Source of the DNA: Patescibacteria group bacterium
Lineage (GTDB): Bacteria > Patescibacteriota > Gracilibacteria > BD1-5 > UBA6164
Direction: 5' to 3'
Length of the DNA: 48,696 bases
NCBI GenBank assembly: GCA_036170435.1
Contig: JAVHPF010000029.1
Span: 1-48,696 of the forward strand
Under the pieces are notes generated by a model. The model was not told where the DNA came from. It saw nothing but the letters and a program-made list of their open reading frames with translations, and made no database searches. Both the position numbers and the translations under genes were made by a program. Below are positions 7,571 to 33,765 of this stretch, one piece after another. Every line of letters starts with the position of its first letter. The first letter of the stretch is position 1.

Positions 7571-7577
7571 AATAAAT

Positions 7578-7604
7578 AAAGCTTTCGAAATATACGAAAG
7601 CTTT
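7578..7604 (+). terminator. rho-independent terminator hairpin after the SLH gene
   Basis: Perfect 10-bp stem aaagctttcg / cgaaagcttt, 7-nt loop, followed by atttatt. Confidence 0.6.
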
Positions 7605-7631
7605 ATTTATTAAGTAAAATTTTTAGACAAT

Positions 7632-8587: not shown

Positions 8588-11500
8588 ATGAGAAAAATAT
8601 TTTCTTTTTTAACGCTTTTCTTTTTGATATCAAACATAGTTTGTTCAAATATTGTATACTGAAGTTCAGATATTAGTGTTACATCATTTACAACAAAAGT
8701 AAATTCTGGTAATGCTATCAGTTGAGATATAAAAGCTAATCCTTGAGATCAGCTTTCTATGCTTGTTTCATGAAATAATAATTCATCGACTATCCAAAAT
8801 AATGTGAAGCTAGAATTTATATTTTCAAATACTGTTGATTTTACAAATGATAATCCTGGTCAAACTAGTTCTTATGTAATGTGGTCACCAGTTAATTCAA
8901 ATATATCTCAAACTATTTTTGCCCCACCTTCACTTAATATAGCCCCAATTACTGCTTCATCTGTAAATTGAGATGCTTTAGATTTATATTATACAAAAAT
9001 AAGGGCAAATACTAATGCTAAAACTTATCTAACTACTATATGAGCTAGATTTTTAGCTGATTCTTATGTTTGAAATAGCCTTACTCGTAATATATATCTA
9101 AATGTAAGACCTCATATAACTAACTATTTTTTTTCTAAATCAGCTTTAGTTTGAAATTGAGTTGATTCAGTAGATTTAACATTGAAAGTAAAAGATTATA
9201 ATTGATGTGCAAATATTGCAGGATGAACTGTAACAGCTAATTTATCTAGTCTATGATTATCTAGTGCTGAACCTCTTTCTTATATTTCTTGTGATGCTGA
9301 TTGAAAAACTTGATTATTCAAAAAAACATGAATAGTAAGTCTTGCTTCTATTTGAGACAAAACTTTAACTTATTCTGATTTTTCAGCAAAAGATGCAGAT
9401 GGAAATTATAACACTCCAATAGATCCTAATACTACATTTGGTAATGAGGATAAAAAAACTAATTTAACTATTAGTATTGTAGCTCCAAATGCTCCTGTAC
9501 TTACTATATCTTCTATAAATCCAAGTATAGTTTCTAGCCAAGATTCAATACTTAATTTTTCAGCTACTCAAACTTGATCTTATAAAGTGGTATTAAACTG
9601 AGATTGAACTTGTTCTGCTTGAACGATTATTTCTGATTGGACTTCTTATAATTTGGAAAATTTAAATATAAATATAGTTAATTCCAATTTACAAAATTGA
9701 ACAAATACAATATATGCTTGTGTAAAAAATGCAACTTGAGATATATGAGCCGCAAATATATCTATAACAAAAGATACTTTAGCTCCTACTATATCTAATA
9801 TATCTATTTCGCCTTGAACTGTTACTACATCAAATGCTAATCTAAGTTTTGCTTGTAATGAAGATTGACAATATAAAGTAAATTATGCTTCTTTTGTTGG
9901 ATCTTATCAAACAGCTCTAACTAATCAAACAAATAATGTAAGTATATCTAATTCGTCATTATCTTTAGGAGCTAATAACATAACTATTTACTGTAAGGAT
10001 ACCGCTTGAAATGAAACTACATGAAATGCTAATATAAATAAAATTCAGCCAACTCCTGCTATGAGTTCTAGTTGAATGAGTATTAGTGATAATGATATTT
10101 GATGGGATTGAGTAGATTGAAGAGATTTAAAAGTAAATTGGGATACTTCAATTGGCTCTTCTTTTGCATGATTTGAATCTTATAGAATTTACGTATTACC
10201 TGAAAATACAGCTTTTTCTACTTGATATACTCAATTATGAATAGTTCCAAATTCTCGAATAAATACTTGGACTTGATCTAAAACTATAACAAATGATAGT
10301 GCTTGAAATCCTTTGGCTTGATGAAATTATAAAGCTTATGTTGCTATAATGTGAACTAGTTGAGAATTGTGAACTGTTGCAGCTAGTGCAACATGAACTC
10401 TTATATCTGATGTAGTTCCACATCCTTCAGTATTATCAGCGAGTTTTACATCTACAGGAAATTTACGAGTAAAATTTGATACAGCTCTAAAAACTGATTT
10501 ATCATCACATAATGCTTCTTTATTTGTTTTTCAAGCTTGATGAACGACATATACATGAACTAGCGTATCATCAATATCAAATGATACAATAAATATAAAT
10601 ATTCCTAATTTAACAAATACTGCTTCGACTTGAACACTTAGTGTTTTTACTTGAGCTGCCTGGTGAGTTCCAGTTGATGGTTCTTTTAACAATGCTAGTT
10701 CGTGAGTTTTAATAAGTGATGCTATATCTCCAAATATTATTAATTTTTCTACTTGAAGTACATCTTATTATTCAAATTTTTATTCTTGAACATTAGCTTT
10801 TAATTATAATATTTCTGAAAATCTAAAAGCTGGATGATTTACAAATATACAATTTACTAGAATTTGATGAAATACTGACATCTTAAAAACTTATTCTATT
10901 ACAAATACTTCTAATCTAACAACTTGATCTCATACTGAAAATATAGATTTAAATGCATTGTGACTTGTTTCGTGAGCTTATTATGAAGCTAGACTTATTG
11001 CTCAAGATTTAAATGGAAATACTAATACGAGTAATCCTATAAGTATAAAATTTGATAATGTTGGTCCTAGTATCGTTTCAATAAGTCCATTTTGAGCTCA
11101 AAAAGTATTAGGAATACTAAATCCTACTTTCACTTGGTTTTCTACTACTGATGATTCTTGAAATTGATCTGGAATAAAATGATATAAATTAAGAGTTTAT
11201 ACTTGAAATACAACTTATACTTCTTGGAAAACATGTACTTGAACTTATAGTGAATATAATATTACAAATTTATCAAATTTATCATACCAAACAACTTTAG
11301 CTAATTTATACAATTATGCTTGGGCTGTAACAGCTTATGATAATATGGAAAATATCTGAACAAGCTCTAGTTGTGATAATTTTTATACAAACAACTTAGT
11401 TCCTAGTTTTTCAAATTCTAGTATAACAGATACTGTTTTAAATAGTATAACTTATGCTAAATGATGAAATAATCTAGTTATTAAATCAACTATAACAAAT

Positions 11501-16159: not shown

Positions 16160-16165
16160 AATTAC

Positions 16166-16198
16166 AAAAAAGAGAGATTTCTAAAATCTCTCTTTTTT
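16166..16198 (+). terminator. rho-independent terminator after the giant gene
   Basis: Perfect 14-bp stem aaaaaagagagatt / aatctctctttttt, loop tctaa, ending in a T-run. Confidence 0.75.
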
Positions 16199-16300
16199 GT
16201 TTAGAAATAAACAATAATATTCTAAATTGTCAATCATTTTATTTTAAAAATTAGTAAATATATGTTAGAATATATGTAAATAAATTTAAATAAAATAATT

Positions 16301-18294: not shown

Positions 18295-19374
18295 ATGGAA
18301 ATTAAAGATAAATGAAATTCATCTATTTTAGAAGACAAAACAGGATGAAATGAAAATATAAAAATAGCCTCTAATGTAGATCAGATTCTAGAAAAACACT
18401 GAATAAGTGAAGGAAAAAGATTCGATATTAATCAAGATATTCGAATGCTTGAAACTGATATAAAATCACAAATAGATAATATCATAAATTTAGATACTGA
18501 TATTTTAAGTGAGTTAATTGAAAAATTACCTTTCCCTTCTGTTAGGTATTCTGCATCTTGAGAAATATTAAATTGGAATAATAAAATGGAATATTTAACA
18601 TGATATTCAAAAGAAGAAATATTAGACTATACAAAAAATTGAGGAAATCCAATGGAATTATTTTATTGATATGATAAAAAAGAATTTGAAAGAGTTAAAT
18701 TTTTCTTATCAATGTTAAAAGAATGAGATTGATATGAAGATCGAGAATTTGATATGATAACAAAATATGATGTTATAAAATATACTTTTTGGAATAGTTA
18801 CCCTACAAAAGATTGATGAAATATTAGATTAATGATTAGACAAGAATATCCAGAACAAAAAAAAGATCAAGAAAATGCTTTAGTTTTAAAAGATCAAGAA
18901 ATAAACAGATTAACTGAATTAGTAAAAAGACTTGAAAGAGAGATAAATAATAAGGATAAACAAAAACAAGATGAAATCAATGACGTAAAAACAAGTTTAT
19001 TATCAGCATCATTATGAAAAGATAAACTAATAGATGTATTAATAGAAAAATTATCTTACCCAACAGCAAGATATAATTCTACTGGAAGAGTTATAAACTG
19101 GAATTCTAAAATGGAAGAAGCAACATGATATTCATTTGATTTTATACAAGAATGGCAAGATGAATGAAAAACACTTGCGGAATTATTTTATTCTTATGAT
19201 GAAAAAGAATTTAGATGAGCTAGTAATTTTATTTGATCATTAGAAGAATGACAATCATATGAAGCTTCATTTAAAGCAAAAATAGCAAACTGAGAAATAA
19301 GAAACTTTTTTTGGCAAAGTACTGGAATAAAGGATTGATGAAGTATTAGAATGATAATAGATTTATTAGATTAA
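18295..19374 (+). CDS. tandem PAS-domain protein with central coiled coil, no output domain (359 aa)
   Basis: Two PAS-like cores: FPSVRYSASGEILNWNNKMEYLTGYSKEEIL and YPTARYNSTGRVINWNSKMEEATGYSFDFI, each followed by ...F(W/F)...KDGGxIR. Linker KDQEINRLTELVKRLEREINNKDKQ. In frame with track ORF 18832-19017. TAA 19372-19374. Confidence 0.65.
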
Positions 19375-19377
19375 AAA

Positions 19378-19415
19378 ATAAAGACATTGAAAATAATCAA
19401 TGTCTTTATTTTTTA
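19378..19415. terminator. bidirectional terminator between the PAS gene and the rhs locus
   Basis: Perfect 13-bp stem ataaagacattga / tcaatgtctttat, loop aaataa, then tttttt. Confidence 0.7.
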
Positions 19416-19441
19416 TATAAACTTTAATTTTTAAAAGAACC

Positions 19442-20082
19442 TTACTTGAAATCTGCTAAGCAAATATCTTTTCAATCTATTATTAGTTTTTTACCATCAT
19501 ATTCTCAATTTTTTAATGGGTCTATGAAATCAGCTAAATTTCTAATTTATGAATTTAATTTTATATTTCATAAATTAGGGTCTATGGTTATATCTCAGAA
19601 AATGTTATGAGTATTAAAACTATAAAGATTCTCAAAATAAGTTCATAAATAATTAAATCTATCAATTACCATAGCTAATTCTTTCTCCTTCCCCATTGAA
19701 TCTACAAACATCACACTATTATTCCCAACATAACTATATAAATTTATATCATCAACTTGCCCAATTGGATCTCTTGATATAAATCTTCCAAGTTCTGCAG
19801 AATAATATCTTACTCTGTAATAATATAATCCTATTTCTTTATCAAATTCTCTTCCAGTAAATAATCTAGAATTATTTATTTTTGACTCTTTAAATTCTCT
19901 CCAATTATAACTTTTTCAATCTCTTATATAAGCTTTTCCAAAAACATAATATTTATCCCCCAAGAGGACGTCCTATGGGCGTACTCTTCTACTACTTTTC
20001 CTTTTTCATCTGTAATTGTAGTAATACTTCATAATTGGTTTTTAGTATAGTAATAAACTTTAAAATATTTTAATTTTACTTG
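19442..20082 (-). pseudogene. rhs: orphan Rhs core + C-terminal tip cassette 1, disrupted
   Basis: 19692-20062 is homologous to the main rhs core (22893-23237): NQLGSITTITDEKGKVVEEY ... GRFISRDPIGQVDDINLYSYVGNNSVMFVDSMG. A 26-nt GC-rich insert (19957-19982) shifts the frame, giving TAA at 19924-19926 in the upstream frame. The short tip ends at TAA 19547-19549; the same frame reopens until TAA 19442-19444. Confidence 0.75.
19957..19982. repeat. 26-nt GC-rich palindromic insertion (cccccaagaggacgtcctatgggcgt)
   Basis: Absent from both other rhs core copies, which read atttat|actcttc. Contains the perfect 10-nt palindrome aggacgtcct. Its length is not a multiple of 3. Confidence 0.8.
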
Positions 20083-20089
20083 TTATAAT

Positions 20090-20764
20090 TTAATTATCTA
20101 TATACCAAATCTTTTTCATAAATCAAAATCTAGATATTAATAAAAGAACTGATTGTTTTTTAGGAATTTCAGTTATAGCTTCTCAATAAATATCTGTAAG
20201 ACGGGTATCTTGTAATGAAATCCTTATTTGTTGCTGATTTTCTAATGTATTATAAGTTCATAAAATTAATGATTCATTTCATATTTTCCAATAATAGAAA
20301 GTAGTTCAAAACTTATTAAATGTATCAGGATTACCAAAAATTCAAGATAATTTTAATAATAATCATGAAAAAATAGAATAATTCCACTCTCAATTATTAT
20401 ATATACTTATTTTATCAACCGATAATAGAATTTTACCATTATCAAATTTCTTATTAGGTGGTATAGTTACAAAATTAAAGTATTTATTTGGAGTAATTTT
20501 AAATAATGGCTGGTAAATAAAATTTTCAAAAAAATCTAATTTAATATCTTTTTTAAAAGTTATAGATTTTTCTGGAGAATATAAATAAATATTATTATTT
20601 TCTGTGGGTATAAATAATACTGGTTCATCAATTGTATTATCTCAATAATATCAAAGAATTTTATTATTATAATAAATATATTCTCAAAATCAAATAGAAA
20701 ATATACTGTAAAACATCAAGATTAATGATAGTATAATAAGTCATTGTTTAATTATTTTTTTCAT
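20090..20764 (-). CDS. membrane-anchored protein in the rhs locus, possible accessory or orphan immunity (224 aa)
   Basis: ATG 20764, TAA 20090-20092, ends checked. N-terminal TM helix GLIILSLILMFYSIFSIGF. No recognisable domain. Confidence 0.5.
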
Positions 20765-20807
20765 AATTTTAAATAATTATCATAATTAAGAAAAAGACTA
20801 AAATATA

Positions 20808-21173
20808 CTATTTATATTCTATCTCTTTTATAAAATCAGTACTTCAATCTGAATTTTTATAATATATTTTATATATTCATTTTTTATCTAAATCAATAGA
20901 AATTTCATTTTTAGGATTAAGTAAAAATTTAAAAAACTTTGTATAAAATGATATATATATTTTTTCATCCTCAATTGAATATTCTATATCTGAAACTCAT
21001 ATAGATGAGTCTCAGATATATCAATTTATATATAAAATATTCTTAGTAGTACTAATCTCTAAAAATTTTCATCAATTGTTAACAAATGTTCATTTTGAAA
21101 TAGACATATTATATATTATTGATAATAATATCAGTAATATAATTATAATTATTATTGAAAAAAAAGTTTTCAT
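20808..21173 (-). CDS. putative Rhs immunity protein 2, N-terminal TM anchor (121 aa)
   Basis: ATG 21173, TAG 20808-20810, all codons checked. TM helix FFSIIIIIILLILLSIIY. Lies directly downstream of orphan toxin cassette 2. Confidence 0.6.
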
Positions 21174-21227
21174 TATTAATTAAGTTAATAATATAAATTT
21201 TAGCTGTTATAAATTAAATATATAGAT

Positions 21228-21983
21228 TTATAAATTATTTATTGAATCTGCAAGCGTATTAGGATTACTTATTCAAAAAGAATTCCTATCTTCTAACTTA
21301 TATTCAGATACAGTATTCCAAGCATCTGATGCCCAAGCACTACATGGATAAGCATATCCCCATTTAATATTATAAATACTATAATATATATAATCATTTA
21401 ATATTTCCATTTTATTTTTATCTAATTCAAGTTTTGCATATTCAAAATTATCATAATTTAAATATGTTTCTGGTCAATTTACTTGAATTCAATCACTTAC
21501 AGGATATTTTAAACTATCTCTATCTGGCCATAATCAATATGTAATTGTATGTCAATTTTTTGTTATTTCTATCCAGCTATGTCCTTCAATAAACGATTCA
21601 TTTCAACTACTTCATCTATCAGAGTATATCGTCAATATAGCTTTTTCTAAACCCATCGGATCAACAAACATCACACTATTATTCCCAACATAACTATATA
21701 AATTTATATCATCAACTTGTCCAATTGGATCTCTTGATATAAATCTTCATAAATCTGCTGAATAATATCTTGCTCTATAATAATATAATCCTGTTTCCTT
21801 ATCAAACTCTCTTCCAGTAAAAAGTCTTGTATTATCAATTTTACTTTCTTTAAACTCTCTCCAATTATCAGATTTTCAATCTCTTATGTAAGCTTTTCCA
21901 AAAACATCGTATTTATACTCTTCTACTACTTTTCCTTTTTCATCTGTAATTGCAGTAATACTTCATAATTGGTTTATTCTATT
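21228..21983 (-). CDS. rhs: orphan Rhs core + toxin-tip cassette 2 (251 codons open, no start codon at its 5' end)
   Basis: Open from the TAA at 21984-21986 down to TAA 21228-21230. 21652-21975 matches main rhs 22893-23216, including a 120-bp identical block. Carries ...RFISRDPIGQVDDINLYSYVGNNSVMFVDPMG then a divergent tip with GHSWIEITKNG...YPCSAWASDAWN. The first ATG/GTG lies just before DPMG. Confidence 0.75.
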
Positions 21984-22350
21984 TTACTTTTCAAAAACAA
22001 TATTCTCAATAATTATTTAAATAACACATCTCATATCAAATAAACTTTTTTGCCTCAAATAAATAATTATTTTCTAACTTATCTGTTGTATTTAAATATC
22101 TAAAATATAATTTCTTCTTATTTTCATCTTTTTCTAAATTTACTATACCATTATAGATATTTCCAGAATCACCCCAAAATGAAATATATGTTCAAGTTTG
22201 ATAAATACTTAAAAATTCAAAAGGTTTCATACTTTTATGATAACTATTAATTCGAAATATATAATATATCAATACTAATGCAAAAATTAATGTTATAGAT
22301 AAAAATATTATCATTATATATTTTATTATTTTATAAGTTTTATTTTTCAT
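21979..22350 (-). CDS. putative Rhs immunity protein 1, N-terminal TM anchor (123 aa)
   Basis: ATG 22350 lies 11 nt after the rhs stop. TAG 21979-21981, all codons checked. TM helix IIKYIMIIFLSITLIFALVLIYYIF. Confidence 0.65.
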
Positions 22351-22360
22351 TACAATTAAA

Positions 22361-25300
22361 TTAATAAATTAAATCTTTATATAAATCTGGTAATGAATAA
22401 GTTCATTGTCAATAACTAAGATTATTTATATTTGAATAATAATCTTTTGCATTATTTCTAAGAGATTCTATAGAGGTAGCTAATGAATCAGGATTACTTA
22501 CAAGACCATCATTTAAATAATTATCAGATACAGTATTCCATATATCAGTAGCAAAGTCACTACAAGGTGCAAATTCAGACCATTTAAGTCAATTACTAAT
22601 ATCTGAATTTATAGTATTAATTATAGTATCATACTGATATCAATTTATATATTCTCATATTGAAACTACATTATCATAATTAGCATAATTTCTATCTTTT
22701 TCTCTATTTTTTACTATATCTGAATTTTGGTTTATAGCATAAGTTGAATTTGACCAATTATTTCAAATTCAATATGAAGTAGTTTCTCAATTTATCGTTA
22801 ATTCTATCCAAGAATGTCAATCTATAAAAATATATGGATTTTCATACCAAGAATAAATTGTAATTTTTCATACTATCAAACTCTTTTCCTTCCCCATCGG
22901 ATCAACAAACATCACACTATTATTCCCAACATAACTATATAAGTTTATATCATCAACTTGTCCAATTGGATCTCTTGATATAAATCTTCAAAGTTCAGCA
23001 GAATAATATCTTGCTCTGTAATAATATAATCATATTTCCTTATCAAATTCTCTTCCAGTAAACAATCTATCATTATTTATTTTTGAGTCTTTAAAATCTC
23101 TCCAATTATCAGATTTTCAATCTCTTATGTAAGCTTTTCCAAAAACATCGTATTTATACTCTTCTACTACTTTTCCTTTTTCATCTGTAATTGCAGTAAT
23201 ACTTCATAATTGGTTTTTAGTATAGTAATAAACTTTAGATTTTCAATCTTTTGTTATAATACTTGCTAAAATATCATCAATAGTGTTTGAATAAATATTT
23301 TCTTTTGTTTCTTCTAGTTTCAATTTATCTTTTTCTTGTTCAAAAATTTCTTCAACTATTGCATTATTTCAAGCATAAGTATATTTTACCACTTTGTTTT
23401 CATTTTTATCTTTATCATCTTCATAAACTATTTTTTCTAGTCTTCTTCATAAAGTATCATAAGAATATTTTGCAATAATTTCACTATTTTTATATTTTTG
23501 ATTTTTTCCTTTTATTCCCTCGCCTATAAGGAGAGGGTTAGGGTGAGGTATTTCTAATTCTTCTACTTTTACTAATCTATTTCTATAATCATAGAAATAT
23601 TTTTGTTTATTATCTTGTATAAGATTTCAGTTATTATCATAAACGAAATTTTCATTTTTCTTTTCAATATTTGTTTGAGTATATTGATTCAGTTCATTGG
23701 TAATATAATCAACATTTGTAATATCTTTTTTTCAAGATTTTCAAACTGTTTTTTCTTCTGTTAATTGAGAACTTGTTCTATTTCAAATATTATCATAAAC
23801 AAACTCTTCTTTTCTCCCTTTTTCAAAGGGAGAACCCGAAGGGGGAGGGATTATTTGACTTGATATTAATCTTGAAATTTCATCATAATTATAGTTTTCA
23901 AGTCAATTTGATTTAATATTTCAAATATTATCGTATGAAAAAGTTAAACTATTTATAATATTTTCTTGTGTTGAAGTATTTTTTCATTTTTTAAGTTCTT
24001 CAATAGAAATATTTTTTAATTCTTGTAATCTTCATAGATTATCATAAGAATAGTTTGTTTTGGTAGTATTTCCATTGATTTGATTTACTAATTCTAATCA
24101 AGAATAATTATAGTCTATATTTATTCCTTTTGTTCCCTCGCCTGCAAGCATAACTGAGACAGGAGTGCTTGCACGACTATCTTCGAAGTTAGAGCGAAGC
24201 AGAGGGTTAGGGTGAGGTGTATTTATATTTTTAAGTCTATTTATCTCATCATAAGATTTTGTTACTACTTTTCAACTTGGATAGATTAGTTTTACTTGAT
24301 TTCAATTAAAATCGTATTCGTAGTTAATTGTTTTTCAATTATTTGTTTCACTTGTAAGTTGGTTAAGCGAATTATATACGAAACTTGTTTCAATAGTTTT
24401 TCATTCATTATCTATACTTTTTGAGTTTATTAATCTTCATAAATCATCATAAATATAGTTTTCTTTTATAGTTCAGATTATTCAAGTAGAATTTGAAATA
24501 TTTCTTTCTACTAATCTATTTAGAAAATCAAAAGTATTTGAGATAATATTCCCGTTTGGATCAGTTTTTTTAACTACATTACCTAGTGAATCATATTCAT
24601 AATTTATTTGTTTTGTATCACTATAGATTTCTTTTTTAAGTCTATTAAATAAGTCATAAACATAAGTAGTTTTATTTCAATTTCAATCAATAATTGCTAT
24701 TAAGTTTCAGTTTATATCATATTCAAATTTTGTTTCAATATTTTTTCAATTTATATATTGAATCTTTTTTGTAACTTTTCAAAGATAATTATATTCTAAA
24801 TCTGTTTTATTTCAGTTTTTGTCTAGAACTCTTGTGATTTGATTTAAAGAATTGTAAATATATCATTTCAGAACATCATTATCTGATTTTTCTCAAATAA
24901 GTCTATTATCTTTGTCATAAAAATAATATGTATTTAGAATTTTTCAAATATTACTTATAATTGATTTTTTAGTAATATTATCATTTTTATCATATTCAAA
25001 AGTTTGTTTATTTCATAGAGAATCTATTATAGAAAGACTTCTTCAAAATATATCATAATTAAGACTTGTTTTATTTCCTGAATTTTCTATTTTTTCAACT
25101 AAAAGTCATTTATTATAAATATAATTTGTAGTAATTTGAGTATTTGATTCTATATTATAGATAATTTCTTTTGTAGTATTTCCAAGTAAATCATAAATTT
25201 TTTCTTGTTTTGATAAAAGTTTATTTTCTTTGTTAAATACTTCAATTTTTATAACATTTCAAGAAACATCATAAGTTAAATTTGTAATGTTTCCTAATTC

Positions 25301-28108
25301 ATCTGTTATTTTAGTAACTTGATTAAATAAATCATATTTTAGAGTTTTTGAATTTCATTTAGCATCAATAATTTTTGTAATATTTCAAGCATTATCGTAT
25401 TCATATTTCGTTTCAATTCATTCAAAAATAGTTTTTATTACTTTATCAAATTCATTATAGAAAAATTCTTTTACAGCTCAATTTGGATAAGTAATTTTTT
25501 TGATATTTTCATTATTATCGTATTCAAATTTTGTTTTAGAATTTAAATCTTTTGAAATAGGATTATTTATTTCAGAAATTTTATCTAAAATATCATAAGT
25601 TTTTGAGACATTTACATCATTATTATCAACTTTTTCAGATTGTTTTATATTATTTCCATTCAAATCATATTCAAAAGAATTTATAACTCACTCCGGACTA
25701 ATAGTTTTTATTATCTGATTAAATTTATTATAATTTATACTTTTTGTATTTCAATTTGCATCTGTTACAGATAAAATATTTCAAGCATTATCATAAGTAA
25801 AACTTGTATCAATAGTATCTGAAAATATAGCAAGTAATGATGAATCTTTTTTTGATATTTTTACTAAATTTCCATTTTGATATTCTAAACTAGTTTTTAA
25901 TCAATTTGGATTTATAGTTTTTACAAGTTGTCATAAATTATCATATTCATAGCTTGTTTCTAGAATTTCATCTCAATTAAAAATTTTTTTATTTATTACA
26001 TTTCATTTTTCATTAAGATTATTTTCTATAATAAGTCCGTTTGATTTTGTTATTTTTATTGGAGTTTCAAAATTTCATTCGTATTCGTATCTTGAGATTT
26101 TCTCATATTCTCAGATTTCTTTTTGTATAAGGAGTCTTCATAAAGAATCATAAGAATATTCTATAATTTTTCAGTTTGGATTAATATCTTTTGTAAGTCT
26201 TCCATTTTCATCATATTCATATTTGAATTCTACAATTCAATTATTTGTTTCTACTTTTCTTGAAATAGTATTTCAATTTATATCAAAAGAATACTCTGTT
26301 TTTACTCAATTTCTATTTATTACATTATTTTTTATTACTTTTCAATTTTCATTGCTAGTATATGTATAATTTACTGTTCAATTTCAATATTTTTGACTAA
26401 TTACTCTGTCCGATTCATCATATGTATTTTCTACATAAGTTTGTAATTTTGAATCAATTAGTTTTGATATATTATGATTTAATTTTTCATTTGCATTTCA
26501 AGAAATATATTCAAATTTGATTTCTTTTAAACTTCAATTTTTTCAAGTTTTTATACTTACTAAATCATTATTAGAGTCATAAATAAAATCTATTTCATCA
26601 TTATTTGAAGTAGTAATTTTTACAAGTCTAGAATCAGCATTATAAATATAGTTTATTTCTTTTCATAAAGTATCTATAGTTTTAATTAGTTTTTTATCTG
26701 CATCATAGTAGTAAGATAAGGCATTTCCATTTTTATCTTCTATTTTTGATATTTTATTTATATCATTAAAATAATATTTTTTTCAGTTATCAAATACTAT
26801 TTTATATAATTCATTTTCTTTTGATAAAGTTGCTCTTGAAGATAAATTATAGCTATTTTCTCAATTAAATTTTGAAATAGAAAATAATCAATTATGTAAA
26901 TCGATTATATTATCATCATTTTTTGAAATATATATATTTTGATTATGATCAAAATTAAATCAAAGTGGTCAATTATAATATACTTGATTTGAGTATTTTA
27001 TATCCAAATCATAATTTAAATTTAATCATTTTAAAGATAATAATTTATTCAAATAATCAAATTCTCAATTAGAAATATTTACTGGATCCACAGTATCTTG
27101 TGAATTATTAGATAGATTAGATGAGTTATTTATGAAATCATTATTTAATCCTATTATTCAATTATTATAATATGTATAATCTCAATTATCTGGTAGTTGA
27201 GGTAGATCTATTGGAGGTATATCATTTGTAAAAATAAGACAATTTTTATCCACTCAATGCATCCAATGTCAAGATACTATTCATTTATCAATTATTAAAT
27301 TATTAATATTTCATTTTTTTTCTTTAACTTTTAATCCTTCCCATCAACAAAAAACAGAATTTCATAAATCTGTATCAAATGACAAATGTCATTCTATTTT
27401 ATCAAAAGATTCATATATATTTTTTTCTTTAGTTTTAAGATTATATATTCACCATCATTGTAAATATGAAGAATCTTCATTATAATCAAATGTTTTATAG
27501 TATAATGTATCTAAATTTTCATCCACCCAAAAAAATCAATTCCATGTAACTTCCCGACTTTTTCAAAAAAGATGTTCAGAAATTCAATTTTTGTAAATAT
27601 CAAATCAACTATTAGAAAGTTTAATAGTACTTCATTTATAAGGCTGGATAGATTGTCAATACATTCATCAAATAGTTTTCCGATAATTATCAATTGAAAT
27701 ATCATTTGATCACCAATAGGATGTTCATGGTATGTTGTGAAATTCTAAAGCTGTTATAGAAATTGCAGGAGTATTATAATTATCATTAATATTTTTTTTA
27801 AAATAATACATATCAGTTGGAACTATTTTAAAATAACTCCAATAAACATAATCTCATTGTTTTTTAAATGCAACAGGTTGATTTAAAGATGTTATAGAAG
27901 ATTCAAAAACTTCTTTTTCCCCATCCTTATTTATTTTCATTATTTTTCATGTTGTCCGGTCATTATCATTATCAATTGTAGAATCAACATAAATAACAAC
28001 ATAATCACTATTATTTATATTTGTTGCTAAAGCACTATTATAAAATAATGGAGAAAATAATATCCCTAAAAATAGTATTTTCTTAAATATCACATTTTTT
28101 ATTTTCAT
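22361..28108 (-). CDS. rhs: Rhs/YD-repeat polymorphic toxin (1915 aa)
   Basis: ATG 28108, TAA 22361-22363. Signal-like N-terminus MKIKNVIFKKILFLGILFSPLFYNSALA. Dozens of YD repeats (YEYDENGRLT, YEYDNLGQLV, YTYDNAGNIL, YEYDSLGNVV; Gly mostly TGA). Core end YYYRARYYSAELGRFISRDPIGQVDDINLYSYVGNNSVMFVDPMG. About 178-aa C-terminal tip. In frame with track ORF 25478-25663. Confidence 0.9.
22893..23237. repeat. rhs core repeat, master copy (other copies at 21652-21975 and 19692-20062)
   Basis: Three direct copies of the last ~110 core codons. 23097-23216 is base-for-base identical to 21856-21975. Confidence 0.9.
23517..23549 (-). repeat. GC-rich palindromic element A, in frame inside rhs
   Basis: ccctcgcc-tataagg-agagggttagggtgaggt in an otherwise AT-rich ORF. 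Stem CCCTC.CC/GG.GAGGG. Translated as PHPNPLLIGEG. Confidence 0.75.
23814..23850 (-). repeat. GC-rich palindromic element B, in frame inside rhs
   Basis: Sense strand tccctcccccttcgggttctccctttgaaaaagggag. Hairpins ccc-ttcg-ggg and tcccttt-gaa-aaaggga. Translated IPPPSGSPFEKGRKEE. Related copies at 29392-29438 and 29865-29910. Confidence 0.75.
24135..24219 (-). repeat. GC-rich element A carrying a nested 57-nt palindromic insert, in frame inside rhs
   Basis: Same ends as 23517-23549 (ccctcgcc ... agagggttagggtgaggt), but the loop is replaced by tgcaagca...tgcttgca and cttcg...cgaag inverted repeats. Translated PHPNPLLRSNFEDSRASTPVSVMLAGEG. Confidence 0.75.
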
Positions 28109-28210
28109 AAAACAAAACATTAAAGAATTAAAAATGATAAGAATATCTTATCATTTTTATATTTTACATATCAAATATTAATTTTTTATTAACAAATAAA
28201 AGATTTTTAA

Positions 28211-28242
28211 AAAAGTATTACTTATTTCTAAGTAATACTTTT
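28211..28242. terminator. hairpin between tRNA-Gln and the rhs start
   Basis: Perfect 14-bp stem aaaagtattactta / taagtaatactttt, loop tttc, 16 nt downstream of the tRNA 3' end. Confidence 0.5.
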
Positions 28243-28257
28243 ATTATTTATTTTTAA

Positions 28258-28332
28258 TGGCTGGGATGGTAGGATTCGAACCTACGAATGGCGGAGTCAA
28301 AGTCCGCTGCCTTACCACTTGGCGACATCCCA
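28258..28332 (-). tRNA. tRNA-Gln (anticodon UUG), CCA encoded
   Basis: Sense strand TGGGATG-TC-GCCAAGTGGTAAGGC-A-GCGGA-CTTTGAC-TCCGC-CATTC-GTAGG-TTCGAAT-CCTAC-CATCCCA-G-CCA. 7-bp acceptor with U1-A72 and discriminator G73 (bacterial tRNA-Gln identity elements). Anticodon loop CU-UUG-AC, T-loop TTCGAAT. Confidence 0.9.
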
Positions 28333-28452: not shown

Positions 28453-29859
28453 ATGAAAATAAGTATTTTTGGTACTGGATATGTATGACTAGTTAGTTGA
28501 GCCTGTTTATCAGAATTATGACACGAAGTAATGTGTATTGATATTGATGAAAAAAAGATAGAAAATCTGAAAAAATGAATAATTCCCATTTATGAGCCAG
28601 AACTTGATGAACTTGTTAAAAGGAATTATAAACAAGGTAGGTTATCATTTTCTACTAATATTCCTGAGTGAATAAAATTTGGGAAAGCTATTTTTTCAGC
28701 TGTCGGAACTCCTCCAGATAAAGAAAATAATAATAAGGCTGACTTAAAATATGTTGAAGAAGTAGCTAAAACTTTTGGTGAGAATATAAGTGAATATAAA
28801 CTTTTCATAAACAAATCAACTGTTCCAGTAGGAACTGGAAAAAGATGTAGAGATATAATCAAAAAAGAAATTCAAAAAAGAGGAAAAGATATAGAATTTG
28901 ATGTTGCATCAAATCCAGAATTTCTTAGAGAATGAAGTGCTATATATGATTTTTTAAATCCTGATAGAGTAGTTTGCTGAGTACAAAACGAAAAAGCTAA
29001 ACAAATAATGGAAGAGATTTACAAACCTCTAGCAAACAAAACTGAAATCATAATAACTGATATTGCTTCAGCAGAAATAATCAAATATGCAGCAAACGCA
29101 TTCCTCGCTACAAAAATCAGTTTCATCAATGAAATAGCAAATTTTGCGGAAAAAGTAGGATGAAATATTTGAGATATAAGCAAGTGAATATGAGCGGATA
29201 ATAGAATCGGAAATAAATTCCTAGAATCTGGAATCGGTTATGGTTGATCTTGTTTTCCGAAAGATATAAAAGCTTTTATAGAAACTTGAAAAGACTTCGA
29301 TCACGAATTCAAAATAATCAGAGAGACTGAAAATGTAAATGAAAGACAAAAAACTATAGTTATTGATAAATTGATAGAATCGATGGAATCCATCCCTTCT
29401 CCATTACATTCCGAAGGACTTCCTTTGGAAAAGGAAGAAATTAATGAATCACAACTATTAAAATGAAAAACTATTTCTATCTGGTGACTCGCTTTTAAAC
29501 CGAATACTGATGATATTAGAGAAGCTCCAAGTATTTCAGTAATAAATAGATTACTTGAACTTTGAGTAGAACAAATTAAGACTTTTGATCCGGCTTGTAT
29601 GACTCATATGGAAGGAGTATTTAGAGAAAATAGTGAAGTAGTATTTTGTGAAACTAATTACCTGGCTTTAGAAGATAGTGATGCTCTAATAGTTCTAACT
29701 GAATGGAATGAATTCAAAATTCCAGATATAAAAAGAATTAGAAAATCTATGAAATGAAATATTATAATAGATGGTAGAAATATTTGGGCAGATGAAAATC
29801 TAATTGATGAATGATTTATATACAAATCTATATGAAAAGTCTCTAAGAAACATTTATAG
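28453..29859 (+). CDS. ugd: UDP-glucose 6-dehydrogenase (468 aa)
   Basis: [32 protein letters not shown] (Rossmann motif, three of its Gly are TGA). Catalytic-site GIGYGGSCFPKD at 29230-29265 (TGA 29245-29247). [18 protein letters not shown] 29857-29859. About 20 extra residues at 29392-29438. Confidence 0.9.
29392..29438 (+). repeat. probable element-B copy inserted in frame in ugd
   Basis: atcccttctccattacattccgaaggacttcctttggaaaaggaaga, GC-richer than its surroundings. Hairpin ttccttt-gga-aaaggaa. Translated [16 protein letters not shown], in the same phase as the rhs copy (IPPPSGSPFEKG). Confidence 0.5.
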
Positions 29860-29864
29860 GAAAA

Positions 29865-29910
29865 TCCCTCCCCCCCCTTCGGGTACTTCGCCTTTCTAAA
29901 AAGGGAGAAA
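29865..29910 (+). repeat. element-B copy, intergenic
   Basis: tccctccccccccttcgggtacttcgcctttctaaaaagggagaaa begins 6 nt after the ugd stop and aligns with the rhs copy (reverse complement of 23814-23850). Confidence 0.7.
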
Positions 29911-29911
29911 T

Positions 29912-30024
29912 AGAACAAATCCCCCGGTCTACGACCACCCCCTTAATAAGGGGGACAAGAGTAAAATAAAAAAGTCCCCCTTATTAAGGGGGTGGCTGAG
30001 GAATGAAGCCGGGGGATTTGTTCT
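29912..30024. repeat. 113-nt nested GC-rich palindrome (MITE-like or structured RNA/terminator)
   Basis: Outer perfect 16-bp inverted repeat agaacaaatcccccgg (29912-29927) / ccgggggatttgttct (30009-30024). Inner perfect 22-bp inverted repeat ccacccccttaataagggggac (29935-29956) / gtcccccttattaagggggtgg (29974-29995). Each inner arm is itself a CCCCC-TTAATAA-GGGGG hairpin. Confidence 0.85.
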
Positions 30025-33637: not shown

Positions 33638-33713
33638 AAAATTCCCATGAAAAATAGTTCATGAGTAAAAAAATCTAAAAATTACCCATGAAAAATAACT
33701 CATGAGTAAAAAA
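33636..33713. repeat. two tandem ~41-nt units with internal palindromes downstream of fic
   Basis: aaaaattcccatgaaaaatagttcatgagtaaaaaaa / aaaaattacccatgaaaaataactcatgagtaaaaaa. The second unit contains the 10-nt palindrome actcatgagt. Confidence 0.75.
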
Positions 33714-33765
33714 CTTGAAAAATATAACATTACCCAATAGTAATGTTATATTTTTCAAGTTTTTT
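33714..33765 (+). terminator. fic terminator, 20-bp perfect hairpin plus T-run
   Basis: cttgaaaaatataacattac / gtaatgttatatttttcaag, loop ccaata, then tttttt. Confidence 0.8.

What the first reader, a model, noticed from the sequence alone, without database searches (positions are those of the whole stretch)
29392..29910. The same element family occurs in frame in ugd, in frame in rhs and in intergenic DNA, read in the same phase in both genes
The three copies are: element B in rhs (sense atc cct ccc cct tcg ggt tct ccc ttt gaa aaa ggg aga); a copy in ugd at 29392-29438 (atc cct tct cca tta cat tcc gaa gga ctt cct ttg gaa aag gaa gaa); and a non-coding copy 6 nt after the ugd stop at 29865-29910 (tc cct ccc ccc cct tcg ggt act tcg cct ttc taa aaa ggg aga). 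Both coding copies lie on the sense strand and start with I-P-(P/S)-P in the same codon phase. In ugd the copy coincides with about 20 extra residues ([21 protein letters not shown]) in the linker just before the conserved [17 protein letters not shown] segment, where characterised Ugd proteins are shorter. A housekeeping enzyme carrying the insert argues that these are insertions and not native coding sequence.
Basis: partly seen in the sequence, partly recalled or inferred. Interest (0 to 1): 0.7.

Follow-up and report, generated by a model that had tools for sequence, protein, structure and literature searches.

The report
In-frame hairpin repeats in Gracilibacteria genes
A short hairpin-forming repeat that normally sits between genes in these very AT-rich, TGA-recoded bacteria has also landed, in frame and without stop codons, inside the housekeeping enzyme Ugd and an Rhs toxin gene; it resembles the Rickettsia palindromic elements but is a new sequence family.

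Summary
The three copies exist and are more than chance. A covariance model built from copies in other genomes finds five units in the window: rhs 23812-23853(-), ugd 29386-29439(+), intergenic 29862-29909(+), and both arms of the 29913-30023 palindrome.

The Ugd segment is a true insert. It is absent from solved Ugd structures and from a syntenic orthologue whose Ugd is 94% identical outside the insert. An AlphaFold model of an orthologue places it in a low-confidence coil.

The ugd copy is a diverged, AT-richer subfamily that I call "U". U also sits in frame in LigA and UvrB of other genomes. It recurs at the same Ugd site in at least six scattered lineages. It is the most nucleotide-conserved stretch of the gene.

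The "same phase" claim fails. In the structure-based alignment the rhs and ugd copies are read one nucleotide apart. Across 18 coding copies, both orientations and all three phases occur.

The best reading is a REP/BIME-like, RPE-like non-autonomous palindromic repeat family. Its tag is AATCC(C/A)TC, not GTAG or CGTC. Coding copies are the survivors in permissive loops. The mobilising enzyme is unknown. I rate it a new variant of a known kind, of moderate interest.

The parts
29386..29439 (+). U-type repeat unit inside ugd, sense strand, translated [18 protein letters not shown]. It consists of the tag GAATCCATC, hairpin 1 (CCTT/AAGG with a 15-nt loop) and hairpin 2 (CTTCCTTT-GGA-AAAGGAAG).
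   Evidence: R1 scores 38.7 bits, E about 5e-13, full length. nhmmer gives E 7e-4. Sequence read.
29383..29457 (+). The whole extra segment of ugd relative to the empty allele: 75 nt ([25 protein letters not shown]) where L001 and L007 have 9 nt (AGD). The net gain is 66 nt, or 22 codons.
   Evidence: DNA and codon alignments with L001 and L007. PDB alignments. 120-homologue alignment.
23812..23853 (-). B-type repeat unit inside rhs, sense strand, translated IIPPPSGSPFEKGR. It lies in a turn between YD repeats.
   Evidence: Exact match. nhmmer E 2e-13 with a profile that excluded window copies. R1 67.7 bits. It differs at 1 of 42 positions from copies in other genomes.
29862..29909 (+). B-type unit 3 nt after the ugd stop codon, with a partly decayed hairpin 2. 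An element sits at the orthologous position in L002, L003 and L005.
   Evidence: R1 31 bits, E about 5e-10. Alignment of the ugd 3' flanks.
29913..30023 (.). Inverted (BIME-like) dimer of two B-like units, 29917-29956(+) and 29974-30019(-). The outer stem is GAACAAATCCCCCGG/CCGGGGGATTTGTTC, and each arm holds a CCCCCTTAATAAGGGGG hairpin.
   Evidence: R1 37.6 and 31.5 bits. Fold -73.7 kcal/mol, z = -11.2 against shuffles.
28453..29859 (+). ugd (UDP-glucose 6-dehydrogenase), 468 aa under table 25; the host gene of the U copy.
   Evidence: Table-25 ORF call. Three Pfam domains. PDB hits at E 1e-124.
22361..28120 (-). rhs/YD-repeat toxin gene, 1919 aa under table 25; the host gene of the B copy and of two A-type elements.
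   Evidence: ORF call. Homologues carry the RHS/YD Pfam domains.

Best explanation
The window carries five units of a short interspersed palindromic repeat superfamily.

Unit architecture: a 5' tag AATCC(C/A)TC; a small variable hairpin; and an 8-bp hairpin, CTCCCTTT-loop-AAAGGGAG in B and CTTCCTTT/AAAGGAAG in U. Units occur singly, in tandem, or as inverted dimers.

Proposed mechanism: this is a REP/BIME-like non-autonomous element that has spread within and among Gracilibacteria genomes. The mobilising enzyme acts in trans and is not identified; an enzyme acting on single-stranded DNA hairpins is the inference. Most copies lie between genes, often just downstream of a stop codon. Copies that land inside genes persist only when the added length is a multiple of three, the frame being read has no TAA or TAG, and the site is a tolerant surface loop. 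They are then translated as Pro/Gly/Ser/Lys/Glu-rich disordered linkers.

Shown: family membership, insertion status, loop location, spread to several genes and genomes, and nucleotide-level conservation. Inferred: transposition in trans, translation of the insert, and selective filtering.
For: Family and structure:
- 47 model matches in 238 kb of low-GC loci from at least 8 species-level MAGs. B copies are nearly identical across these genomes.
- Hairpin 1 covaries: CCCC/GGG, GGCC/GGCC and GGCT/AGCC. Three of its 4 pairs change on both sides, and 0 of 500 shuffles reach the observed covariation score.
- U differs from B in hairpin 2 by a compensated C-G to T-A change.

Insertion status:
- Empty and filled ugd alleles exist in syntenic loci whose ugd genes share 90% nucleotide identity.
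- In Ugd, LigA and UvrB the segment has no counterpart in solved structures.
- The ugd 3' spacer holds B, an A-type element or another type in different relatives.
- Three tandem copies sit in a malic enzyme. U plus an inverted B sits in LigA.

Distribution:
- 29 of the 47 copies are non-coding.

Tolerated site:
- In the AF2 model of the U-bearing orthologue P0013, residues 321-335 have pLDDT below 50. Residues 325-344 are coil, between helix 308-324 and strand 345-349.

Not just a linker peptide:
- U is the most conserved 19-codon window of ugd among 8 carriers. Third-position identity is 0.88, against 0.575 for the rest of the gene.
- U variants are shared between genes: ugd L128 with ligA L120, and ugd L126/L127 with uvrB L129.

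Precedent:
- RPEs insert in frame in Rickettsia genes (PMC10969869). Intragenic REPs occur in uvrB, DNA ligase and other genes (PMC3733652).
Against: - No transposase or other mobilising gene was identified, and no complete genome could be censused.
- No consistent target-site duplication is visible. AAT follows the unit in 7 of 18 B copies, counted by eye from the flanks printed.
- Single units do not fold significantly better than shuffles (z -0.3 to -1.5).
- The recurrence of U at one Ugd site could be a single old insertion with many precise losses, rather than repeated insertion.
- For rhs there is no close orthologue, so an empty site is not shown. The loop there is variable in length in homologues.
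- Translation of the inserts is inferred, not observed.
- The sample of loci was collected with the hairpin pattern itself, so densities and the invariance of hairpin 2 are biased.
Confidence: 0.7

Rival explanations
1. The repeats are primarily functional structured RNA or DNA motifs kept by selection, not selfish mobile DNA. Examples would be 3'-end mRNA stabilisers or a binding site for a conserved protein. The genic copies would then be incidental or regulatory.
For: - A B unit sits within 10 nt of the ugd stop in four genomes whose Ugd proteins are 68-91% identical.
- Hairpin 1 covaries, and its loops read T-N-C-G.
- U is conserved at third codon positions far above the rest of ugd.
- The tag plus hairpin recurs across many phyla.
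- REPs are thought to act as RNA elements downstream of genes (PMC3733652).
Against: - Closely related genomes lack the ugd insert, or carry a different element at the same two places.
- Both orientations occur after genes and inside genes.
- There is no intrinsic-terminator signature on the ugd strand. The genome's evident terminators are long AT-rich hairpins of a different kind.
- There is no Rfam match.
- This reading is compatible with mobility rather than an alternative to it.
Confidence: 0.17
2. The ugd segment is a separate repeat family that only resembles element B by convergence: any pyrimidine-run/purine-run hairpin looks similar. Only the rhs and intergenic copies would then be one family.
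For: - The sequence-only match is weak (nhmmer E 7e-4; for other U copies only the hairpin part aligns).
- U has a 15-nt loop that B lacks, and lower GC (0.43 against 0.50).
- The model's E-values are rough by design.
Against: - The match to the model is full length, with tag, both helices and spacing in register. It scores 38.7 bits against a noise ceiling of about 8 bits.
- All nine U copies keep AATCC(A/T)TCC.
- In LigA, U pairs with an inverted B to give the same dimer architecture as B-B dimers.
- Intermediate forms exist: AATCCATC in Peribacteria L042 and AATCCACC in L031.
Confidence: 0.08
3. The Ugd segment is native, lineage-specific coding sequence: an old linker that has been lost repeatedly.
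For: It is present at the same site in orthologues at only 59-68% identity. The similarity of U between carriers partly tracks host similarity.
Against: - The same sequence occurs in frame in LigA and UvrB.
- It matches the interspersed repeat model.
- Third-position conservation is 0.88 against 0.575 for the rest of the gene.
- The nearest relatives are empty, and the carriers are scattered over the tree.
- Other element types occupy the same site.
Confidence: 0.03
4. The inserts are not translated. Ribosomes would hop over them, as with the GC-rich 'byp' inserts in Magnusiomyces mitochondrial genes (recalled from memory, Lang et al. 2014).
For: They are GC-rich hairpin inserts inside genes of an AT-rich genome with a reassigned UGA. 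No protein-level data are available.
Against: All 18 genic copies found are in frame and free of stop codons in the host frame, and they add whole codons. A bypassed insert would not need these properties. This test is circular, because 'coding' was defined as lying inside an uninterrupted ORF. A rough look at the non-coding copies found no gene clearly split by a unit.
Confidence: 0.02

Closest known systems
REP / BIME elements (GTAG- and CGTC-tagged palindromic repeats; RAYT-associated)
   Same: Short imperfect palindromes with a conserved tag at one end. They lie mostly between genes and downstream of coding regions, and are often paired in inverted orientation. Some copies lie in frame inside genes, including uvrB and DNA ligase, and different REPs occur at about the same site of recB in two Xanthomonas species (PMC3733652).
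   Different: The tag is AATCC(C/A)TC, not GTAG or CGTC. The unit has two hairpins. No RAYT or other Y1 transposase has been linked to it. The hosts are CPR bacteria with about 22% GC and TGA read as Gly.
Rickettsia palindromic elements (RPE)
   Same: Palindromic repeats inserted in frame into unrelated housekeeping genes of a reduced, AT-rich genome. They encode a conserved peptide that appears compatible with the protein fold (PMC10969869).
   Different: RPEs are about 100-150 bp, CGTC-tagged and confined to Rickettsia. The units here are 42-54 nt and unrelated in sequence. The same unit type is mostly intergenic.
G+C clusters of yeast mitochondrial DNA (optional in-frame clusters in VAR1/rps3)
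   Same: GC-rich palindromic clusters scattered in a very AT-rich genome with a reassigned UGA. They are usually non-coding but also inserted into a protein gene, where they change the size of the product (PMC4464245 and the references cited there).
   Different: Organelle rather than bacterium. The sequence classes are different. Unidirectional conversion in crosses is known for yeast (my recollection) and is untested here.
MITEs
   Same: Small, non-coding and repeated, and sometimes fused in frame to host ORFs (PMC10969869).
   Different: No terminal inverted repeats matching an IS element were found, and no consistent target-site duplication.

Membership tests
REP/BIME (GTAG/CGTC superfamilies) | Short (about 20-40 bp) imperfect palindrome able to form a stem-loop | tested here: met
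   The 42-nt unit has an 8-bp hairpin plus a 3-4-bp covarying hairpin.
REP/BIME (GTAG/CGTC superfamilies) | Conserved GTAG or CGTC tetranucleotide at one end | tested here: not met
   The alignment of 19 units shows an invariant AATCC..C tag and no terminal GTAG or CGTC. The same holds for U copies.
REP/BIME (GTAG/CGTC superfamilies) | Units frequently paired in inverted orientation (BIME-like dimers) | tested here: met
   Window 29913-30023. Also the L120 U plus inverted B pair, and the L005, L031 and L002 pairs.
REP/BIME (GTAG/CGTC superfamilies) | Predominantly extragenic, downstream of coding regions | tested here: met
   29 of 47 copies are non-coding in genomes with little non-coding DNA. 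Several lie 3-111 nt after a stop codon. The sample is biased by how the loci were collected.
REP/BIME (GTAG/CGTC superfamilies) | Cognate RAYT (IS200/IS605-type Y1 transposase) gene in the genome, flanked by the repeats | not testable with these tools
   Only 2-21 kb fragments of the genomes were available. None of the Pfam families listed for the genes called in the loci fetched with the look-up of encoding contigs was a Y1 transposase.
Rickettsia palindromic elements | In-frame insertion into unrelated, conserved protein genes | tested here: met
   Ugd, Rhs, LigA, UvrB, malic enzyme, a glycosyltransferase and a membrane protein.
Rickettsia palindromic elements | Element of about 100-150 bp belonging to the RPE sequence families (CGTC-tagged) | tested here: not met
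   Units are 42-54 nt with a different tag. No direct comparison with RPE sequences was run.
Rickettsia palindromic elements | Insert lies at a surface or loop position compatible with the fold | tested here: met
   AF2 model of P0013: the insert is a low-pLDDT coil between two domains. PDB alignments show clean gaps.
MITE | Terminal inverted repeats plus target-site duplication | tested here: inconclusive
   Full dimers have AAATCCC.../...GGGATTT ends, but single units lack one end. The flanks show no consistent direct repeat.
Translational-bypass inserts (byps) | Insert interrupts the reading frame, so that hopping is required | tested here: not met
   All genic copies are in frame and stop-free in the host frame.

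The most novel reading that the evidence does not exclude
The AATCCCYC-tagged hairpin repeats would be a third, previously undescribed REP-like superfamily, beside the GTAG and CGTC types. It spans many bacterial phyla. In Gracilibacteria it would insert site-preferentially, repeatedly hitting the same codon-level position of ugd, and also replication and repair genes such as ligA and uvrB. Lineage-specific master copies, or intragenomic conversion, would keep the genic copies more conserved than their host genes.
Probability: 0.3. Interest if true: 0.7.

Novelty: new variant of a known kind. Interest (0 to 1): 0.5.

Why it matters
It extends protein tinkering by palindromic repeats, known from Rickettsia RPEs and a few intragenic REPs, to the Candidate Phyla Radiation and to a genome with a reassigned stop codon. 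TGA read as Gly opens one extra reading frame of the element.

There are practical consequences. These inserts create apparent lineage-specific loops in conserved enzymes, and they can mislead alignment, phylogeny and structure prediction.

The recurrent occupation of a single Ugd linker by several subfamilies, together with nucleotide-level conservation above that of the host gene, offers a tractable case. It could be used to separate target preference, selection for tolerated sites, and gene conversion. The cross-phylum tag gives a handle for finding the enzyme that moves such elements.

Tried and rejected
- Table-11 ORF calls are useless here (3 ORFs). I re-called ORFs with table 25.
- A protein search with concatenated insert peptides found almost nothing, because the word index needs longer queries.
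- The metagenome scan for U gave a single locus, but it was an informative one: uvrB.
- No B or U copies were found in IMG/VR viral contigs. One viral contig carries the cross-phylum form; I did not follow it up.
- Rfam gave no family, at gathering threshold or down to E 10. Only spurious long-hairpin hits appeared.
- An intrinsic-terminator role for the ugd 3' units is not supported on the ugd strand.
- The Rhs homologue search found no close orthologue, so an empty rhs site could not be shown.
I used the U-bearing orthologue P0013 instead.
- A suspected element-split gene in L031 did not hold up.
- Literature searches by topic and by sequence string found no description of these elements.

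Full report
**Setting.** The window has about 22-29% GC. Under table 11 it has almost no long ORFs. Under table 25 it is densely coding. Ugd homologues come from Candidatus Gracilibacteria. The genes that matter here are ugd at 28453-29859(+), 468 aa, and an rhs/YD-repeat gene at 22361-28120(-), 1919 aa. A tRNA-Gln lies at 28258-32(-).

**The observation.** The ugd and intergenic strings are where stated. GC-rich islands are rare in this window, and most of them are these elements.

I collected copies from other genomes with a degenerate hairpin pattern. From them I built a profile of 18 units, none from the window. The profile recovers the rhs copy (E 2e-13), the intergenic copy (E 5e-6) and the ugd copy (E 7e-4, nearly full length, sense strand) in about 0.5 Mb of search space.

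I then built a covariance model, R1, from 19 units (one of them the rhs copy) with an explicit two-hairpin structure. It gives 67.7, 31.0 and 38.7 bits for the rhs, intergenic and ugd copies. It also gives 37.6 and 31.5 bits for the two arms of the 29913-30023 palindrome. Apart from a 16.5-bit reverse reading of the rhs hairpin, nothing else in the window exceeds about 8 bits. The window therefore holds five units, and the similarity is not chance.

**Anatomy.** A unit has three parts:
- a tag, AATCC(C/A)TC;
- hairpin 1, which is short and variable. It covaries (CCCC/GGG, GGCC/GGCC, GGCT/AGCC). Three of its 4 pairs change on both sides, and 0 of 500 shuffles reach the observed covariation score;
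- hairpin 2, which is 8 bp.

In the ugd type (U), hairpin 1 has a 15-nt loop. Hairpin 2 is CTTCCTTT/AAAGGAAG instead of CTCCCTTT/AAAGGGAG, a compensated change.

Two units in inverted orientation form the 111-nt palindrome after ugd (-73.7 kcal/mol, z = -11). Single units do not fold better than shuffles.

**Is the Ugd segment an insert?** Yes.
- Against the solved Ugd structures 4a7p and 3gg2, the window protein has about 21 residues with no counterpart. They lie just before GKT.SIWGL.FKPNTDD.
- Of 120 homologues, most have a 3-5-residue linker there.
- The syntenic locus L001 has the same neighbouring genes. Its ugd is 90.4% identical in nucleotides and 94% in protein outside the insert. It has 9 nt (AGD) where the window has 75 nt.
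- An AlphaFold model of the U-bearing orthologue P0013 puts the segment in a low-confidence coil (pLDDT below 50 for residues 321-335). The coil lies between the last helix of the central domain and the first strand of the C-terminal domain.

**The ugd copy is its own subfamily.** The peptide SIPSPLHSE(G/V)LPL(E/K)KEEIN recurs at the same site in orthologues at 59-84% identity (P0004, P0007, P0010, P0013, P0021, P0027, P0034). Closer relatives lack it (P0002, P0003, P0006). On a neighbour-joining tree the carriers fall in at least six separate places, with empty sister sequences.

At the DNA level, U is the most conserved 19-codon window of the whole gene among eight carriers. It ranks 1 of 476 windows. 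Third-position identity is 0.88, against 0.575 for the rest of the gene.

U is not confined to ugd:
- In L120 it lies in frame in NAD-dependent DNA ligase, next to an inverted B unit. Together they form a 38-residue segment absent from S. aureus LigA.
- In L129 it lies in frame in UvrB, within a segment absent from solved UvrB structures.

Variants of U are shared between genes rather than between orthologues: ugd L128 with ligA L120, and ugd L126/L127 with uvrB L129. This fits lineage-specific source copies or intragenomic conversion. It argues for at least two or three independent arrivals in ugd.

The same Ugd site also holds other element types:
- an A-like unit in L002, whose Ugd is 91% identical overall to the window's and shares its flanks;
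- a simple tag-plus-hairpin form in L131;
- a decayed form in L130.

**Phase and strand.** The conserved tag of U is (G/A)AATCC(A/T)TCC, starting at 29386. In the model's register, the first base of hairpin 2 is codon position 2 in rhs and position 1 in ugd. Under either alignment, hairpin 2 is read SPFEKGR in rhs and LPLEKEE in ugd.

B with its usual TAATCC tag has a TAA in the frame that U uses. One further sense frame of B is open only because TGA is Gly.

Among 47 model matches in 238 kb, 18 are inside long ORFs. Their classes are: sense phase 1, 8 copies; sense phase 2, 5; sense phase 3, 1; antisense, 4. B is read as IPPP(S/A)G(S/T)PFEKGR both in rhs and in three tandem copies in a malic enzyme (L017). 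It is read in other frames or orientations in L116, L098, L120 and L014.

U is read in the same frame in all three host genes. With 5 of its 6 frames open this gives p of about 0.04, from too few cases to build on.

**Intergenic copies.** A B unit follows the ugd stop in the window, L002, L003 and L005. L001 and L007 have an A-type unit there, and L004 has another type. The units are not canonical terminators on the ugd strand. The genome's obvious terminators are long AT-rich hairpins at 7571-7611, 16164-16200 and 33708-33765. Rfam has no match.

**rhs.** B differs from copies in other genomes at 1 of 42 positions. It lies in a turn between YD repeats. No close orthologue was found, and the loop is of variable length in homologues, so an empty rhs site is not shown. 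That B is an element copy rests on its identity to the dispersed family.

**Interpretation.** The best-supported reading is a REP/BIME-like, RPE-like non-autonomous palindromic repeat. Its genic copies are survivors in tolerant loops. Shown: family membership, insertion status, loop position, multi-gene and multi-genome spread, and nucleotide-level conservation. Inferred: mobilisation in trans, translation, and selective filtering.

Precedents:
- RPEs fused in frame into many Rickettsia genes (PMC10969869).
- Intragenic REPs, notably in uvrB, DNA ligase and other replication and repair genes, with different REPs at the same recB site in two Xanthomonas species (PMC3733652).
- GC clusters inserted into VAR1 in yeast mitochondria (PMC4464245).

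The defining GTAG or CGTC tag of known REP superfamilies is absent, so I do not file this as a member of those families.

**Beyond Gracilibacteria.** In 77 of 128 pattern hits, the hairpin is flanked by AAATCCCYC or its complement GRGGGATTT. The loci span 20-67% GC and many phyla: Chloroflexi, Proteobacteria, Bacteroidetes, Omnitrophota, Nitrospirae and CPR. The search pattern imposed the hairpin, but it did not impose the tag. I found no description of this in the paper library.

**Verdict.** I rate this a new variant of a known kind, with interest 0.5.

Noticed in passing
window 24126-24219(-) and about 23507-23551(-), both inside rhs: There are two copies of a different GC-rich element, type A: ACCTCACCCTAACCCTCT...AGGCGAGGGAA, translated PHPNPLL..GEG(T/I)KG. 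The first copy carries a nested 56-nt hairpin-forming insert in its loop (RSNFEDSRASTPVSVMLA). An A-type unit also follows the ugd stop in L001 and L007, and an A-like unit fills the ugd site in L002.
   Followed up: partly
L008-L124 (genome-contig hits), e.g. L016, L063, L070, L018: The hairpin TCTCCCTTTGRAAAAGGGAGA is flanked by AAATCCCYC or GRGGGATTT in 77 of 128 hits. These come from many phyla, at 20-67% GC. Often the arrangement is an outer stem enclosing one or two hairpins. This may be a cross-phylum repeat superfamily without a GTAG or CGTC tag.
   Followed up: partly
L014:4775-6781 (46% GC contig binned as Gammaproteobacteria): A 668-aa ORF under the standard code carries a perfect Gracilibacteria-type B unit in frame (ILPFPKGVPAGGGI) and a second B-like in-frame stretch (NSPFSKGSTPQGGGI), along with other repeat-derived peptides. 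The cause could be mis-binning, horizontal transfer, or a wider host range.
   Followed up: partly
L017:3189-3326 (malic enzyme) and L098 (614-aa membrane protein): Three tandem 48-nt B units lie in frame just before the NAD-binding GxGxxG motif of a malic enzyme. An O-antigen-ligase-like membrane protein carries at least three model-detected units plus further look-alike segments.
   Followed up: partly
window 18295-28332 compared with L001:8630-10000: The rhs gene, with three repeated C-terminal cassettes (19683-19982, 21643-21942, 22884-23183) and small downstream ORFs, forms an island of about 9 kb next to tRNA-Gln. In the otherwise syntenic L001 this island is replaced by one 336-aa gene.
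   Followed up: no
Rhs homologues P0124, P0133, P0136 (alignment, at the turn after YDYRNRLVKVE): Homologues from other lineages, including an Omnitrophica protein, carry their own Pro/Gly-rich element-like segments (LTPNPSPKGE, PPLSPLLTKEG, PPNTSLRGSP). They sit at the same YD-repeat turn as the window's second A unit. This is another recurrent insertion site.
   Followed up: no
window 7571-7611, 16164-16200, 33708-33765: Long perfect AT-rich hairpins (15-26 bp stems), flanked by A and T runs, lie at gene ends. They are probably the genome's real bidirectional terminators, and they differ from the GC-rich repeats.
   Followed up: no
L132 (IMGVR_UViG_3300037264_007091): 2761-2792 and 10073-10104: One viral contig carries two copies of the cross-phylum hairpin-plus-GAGGGATT form. 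No viral contig carries the B or U patterns.
   Followed up: no
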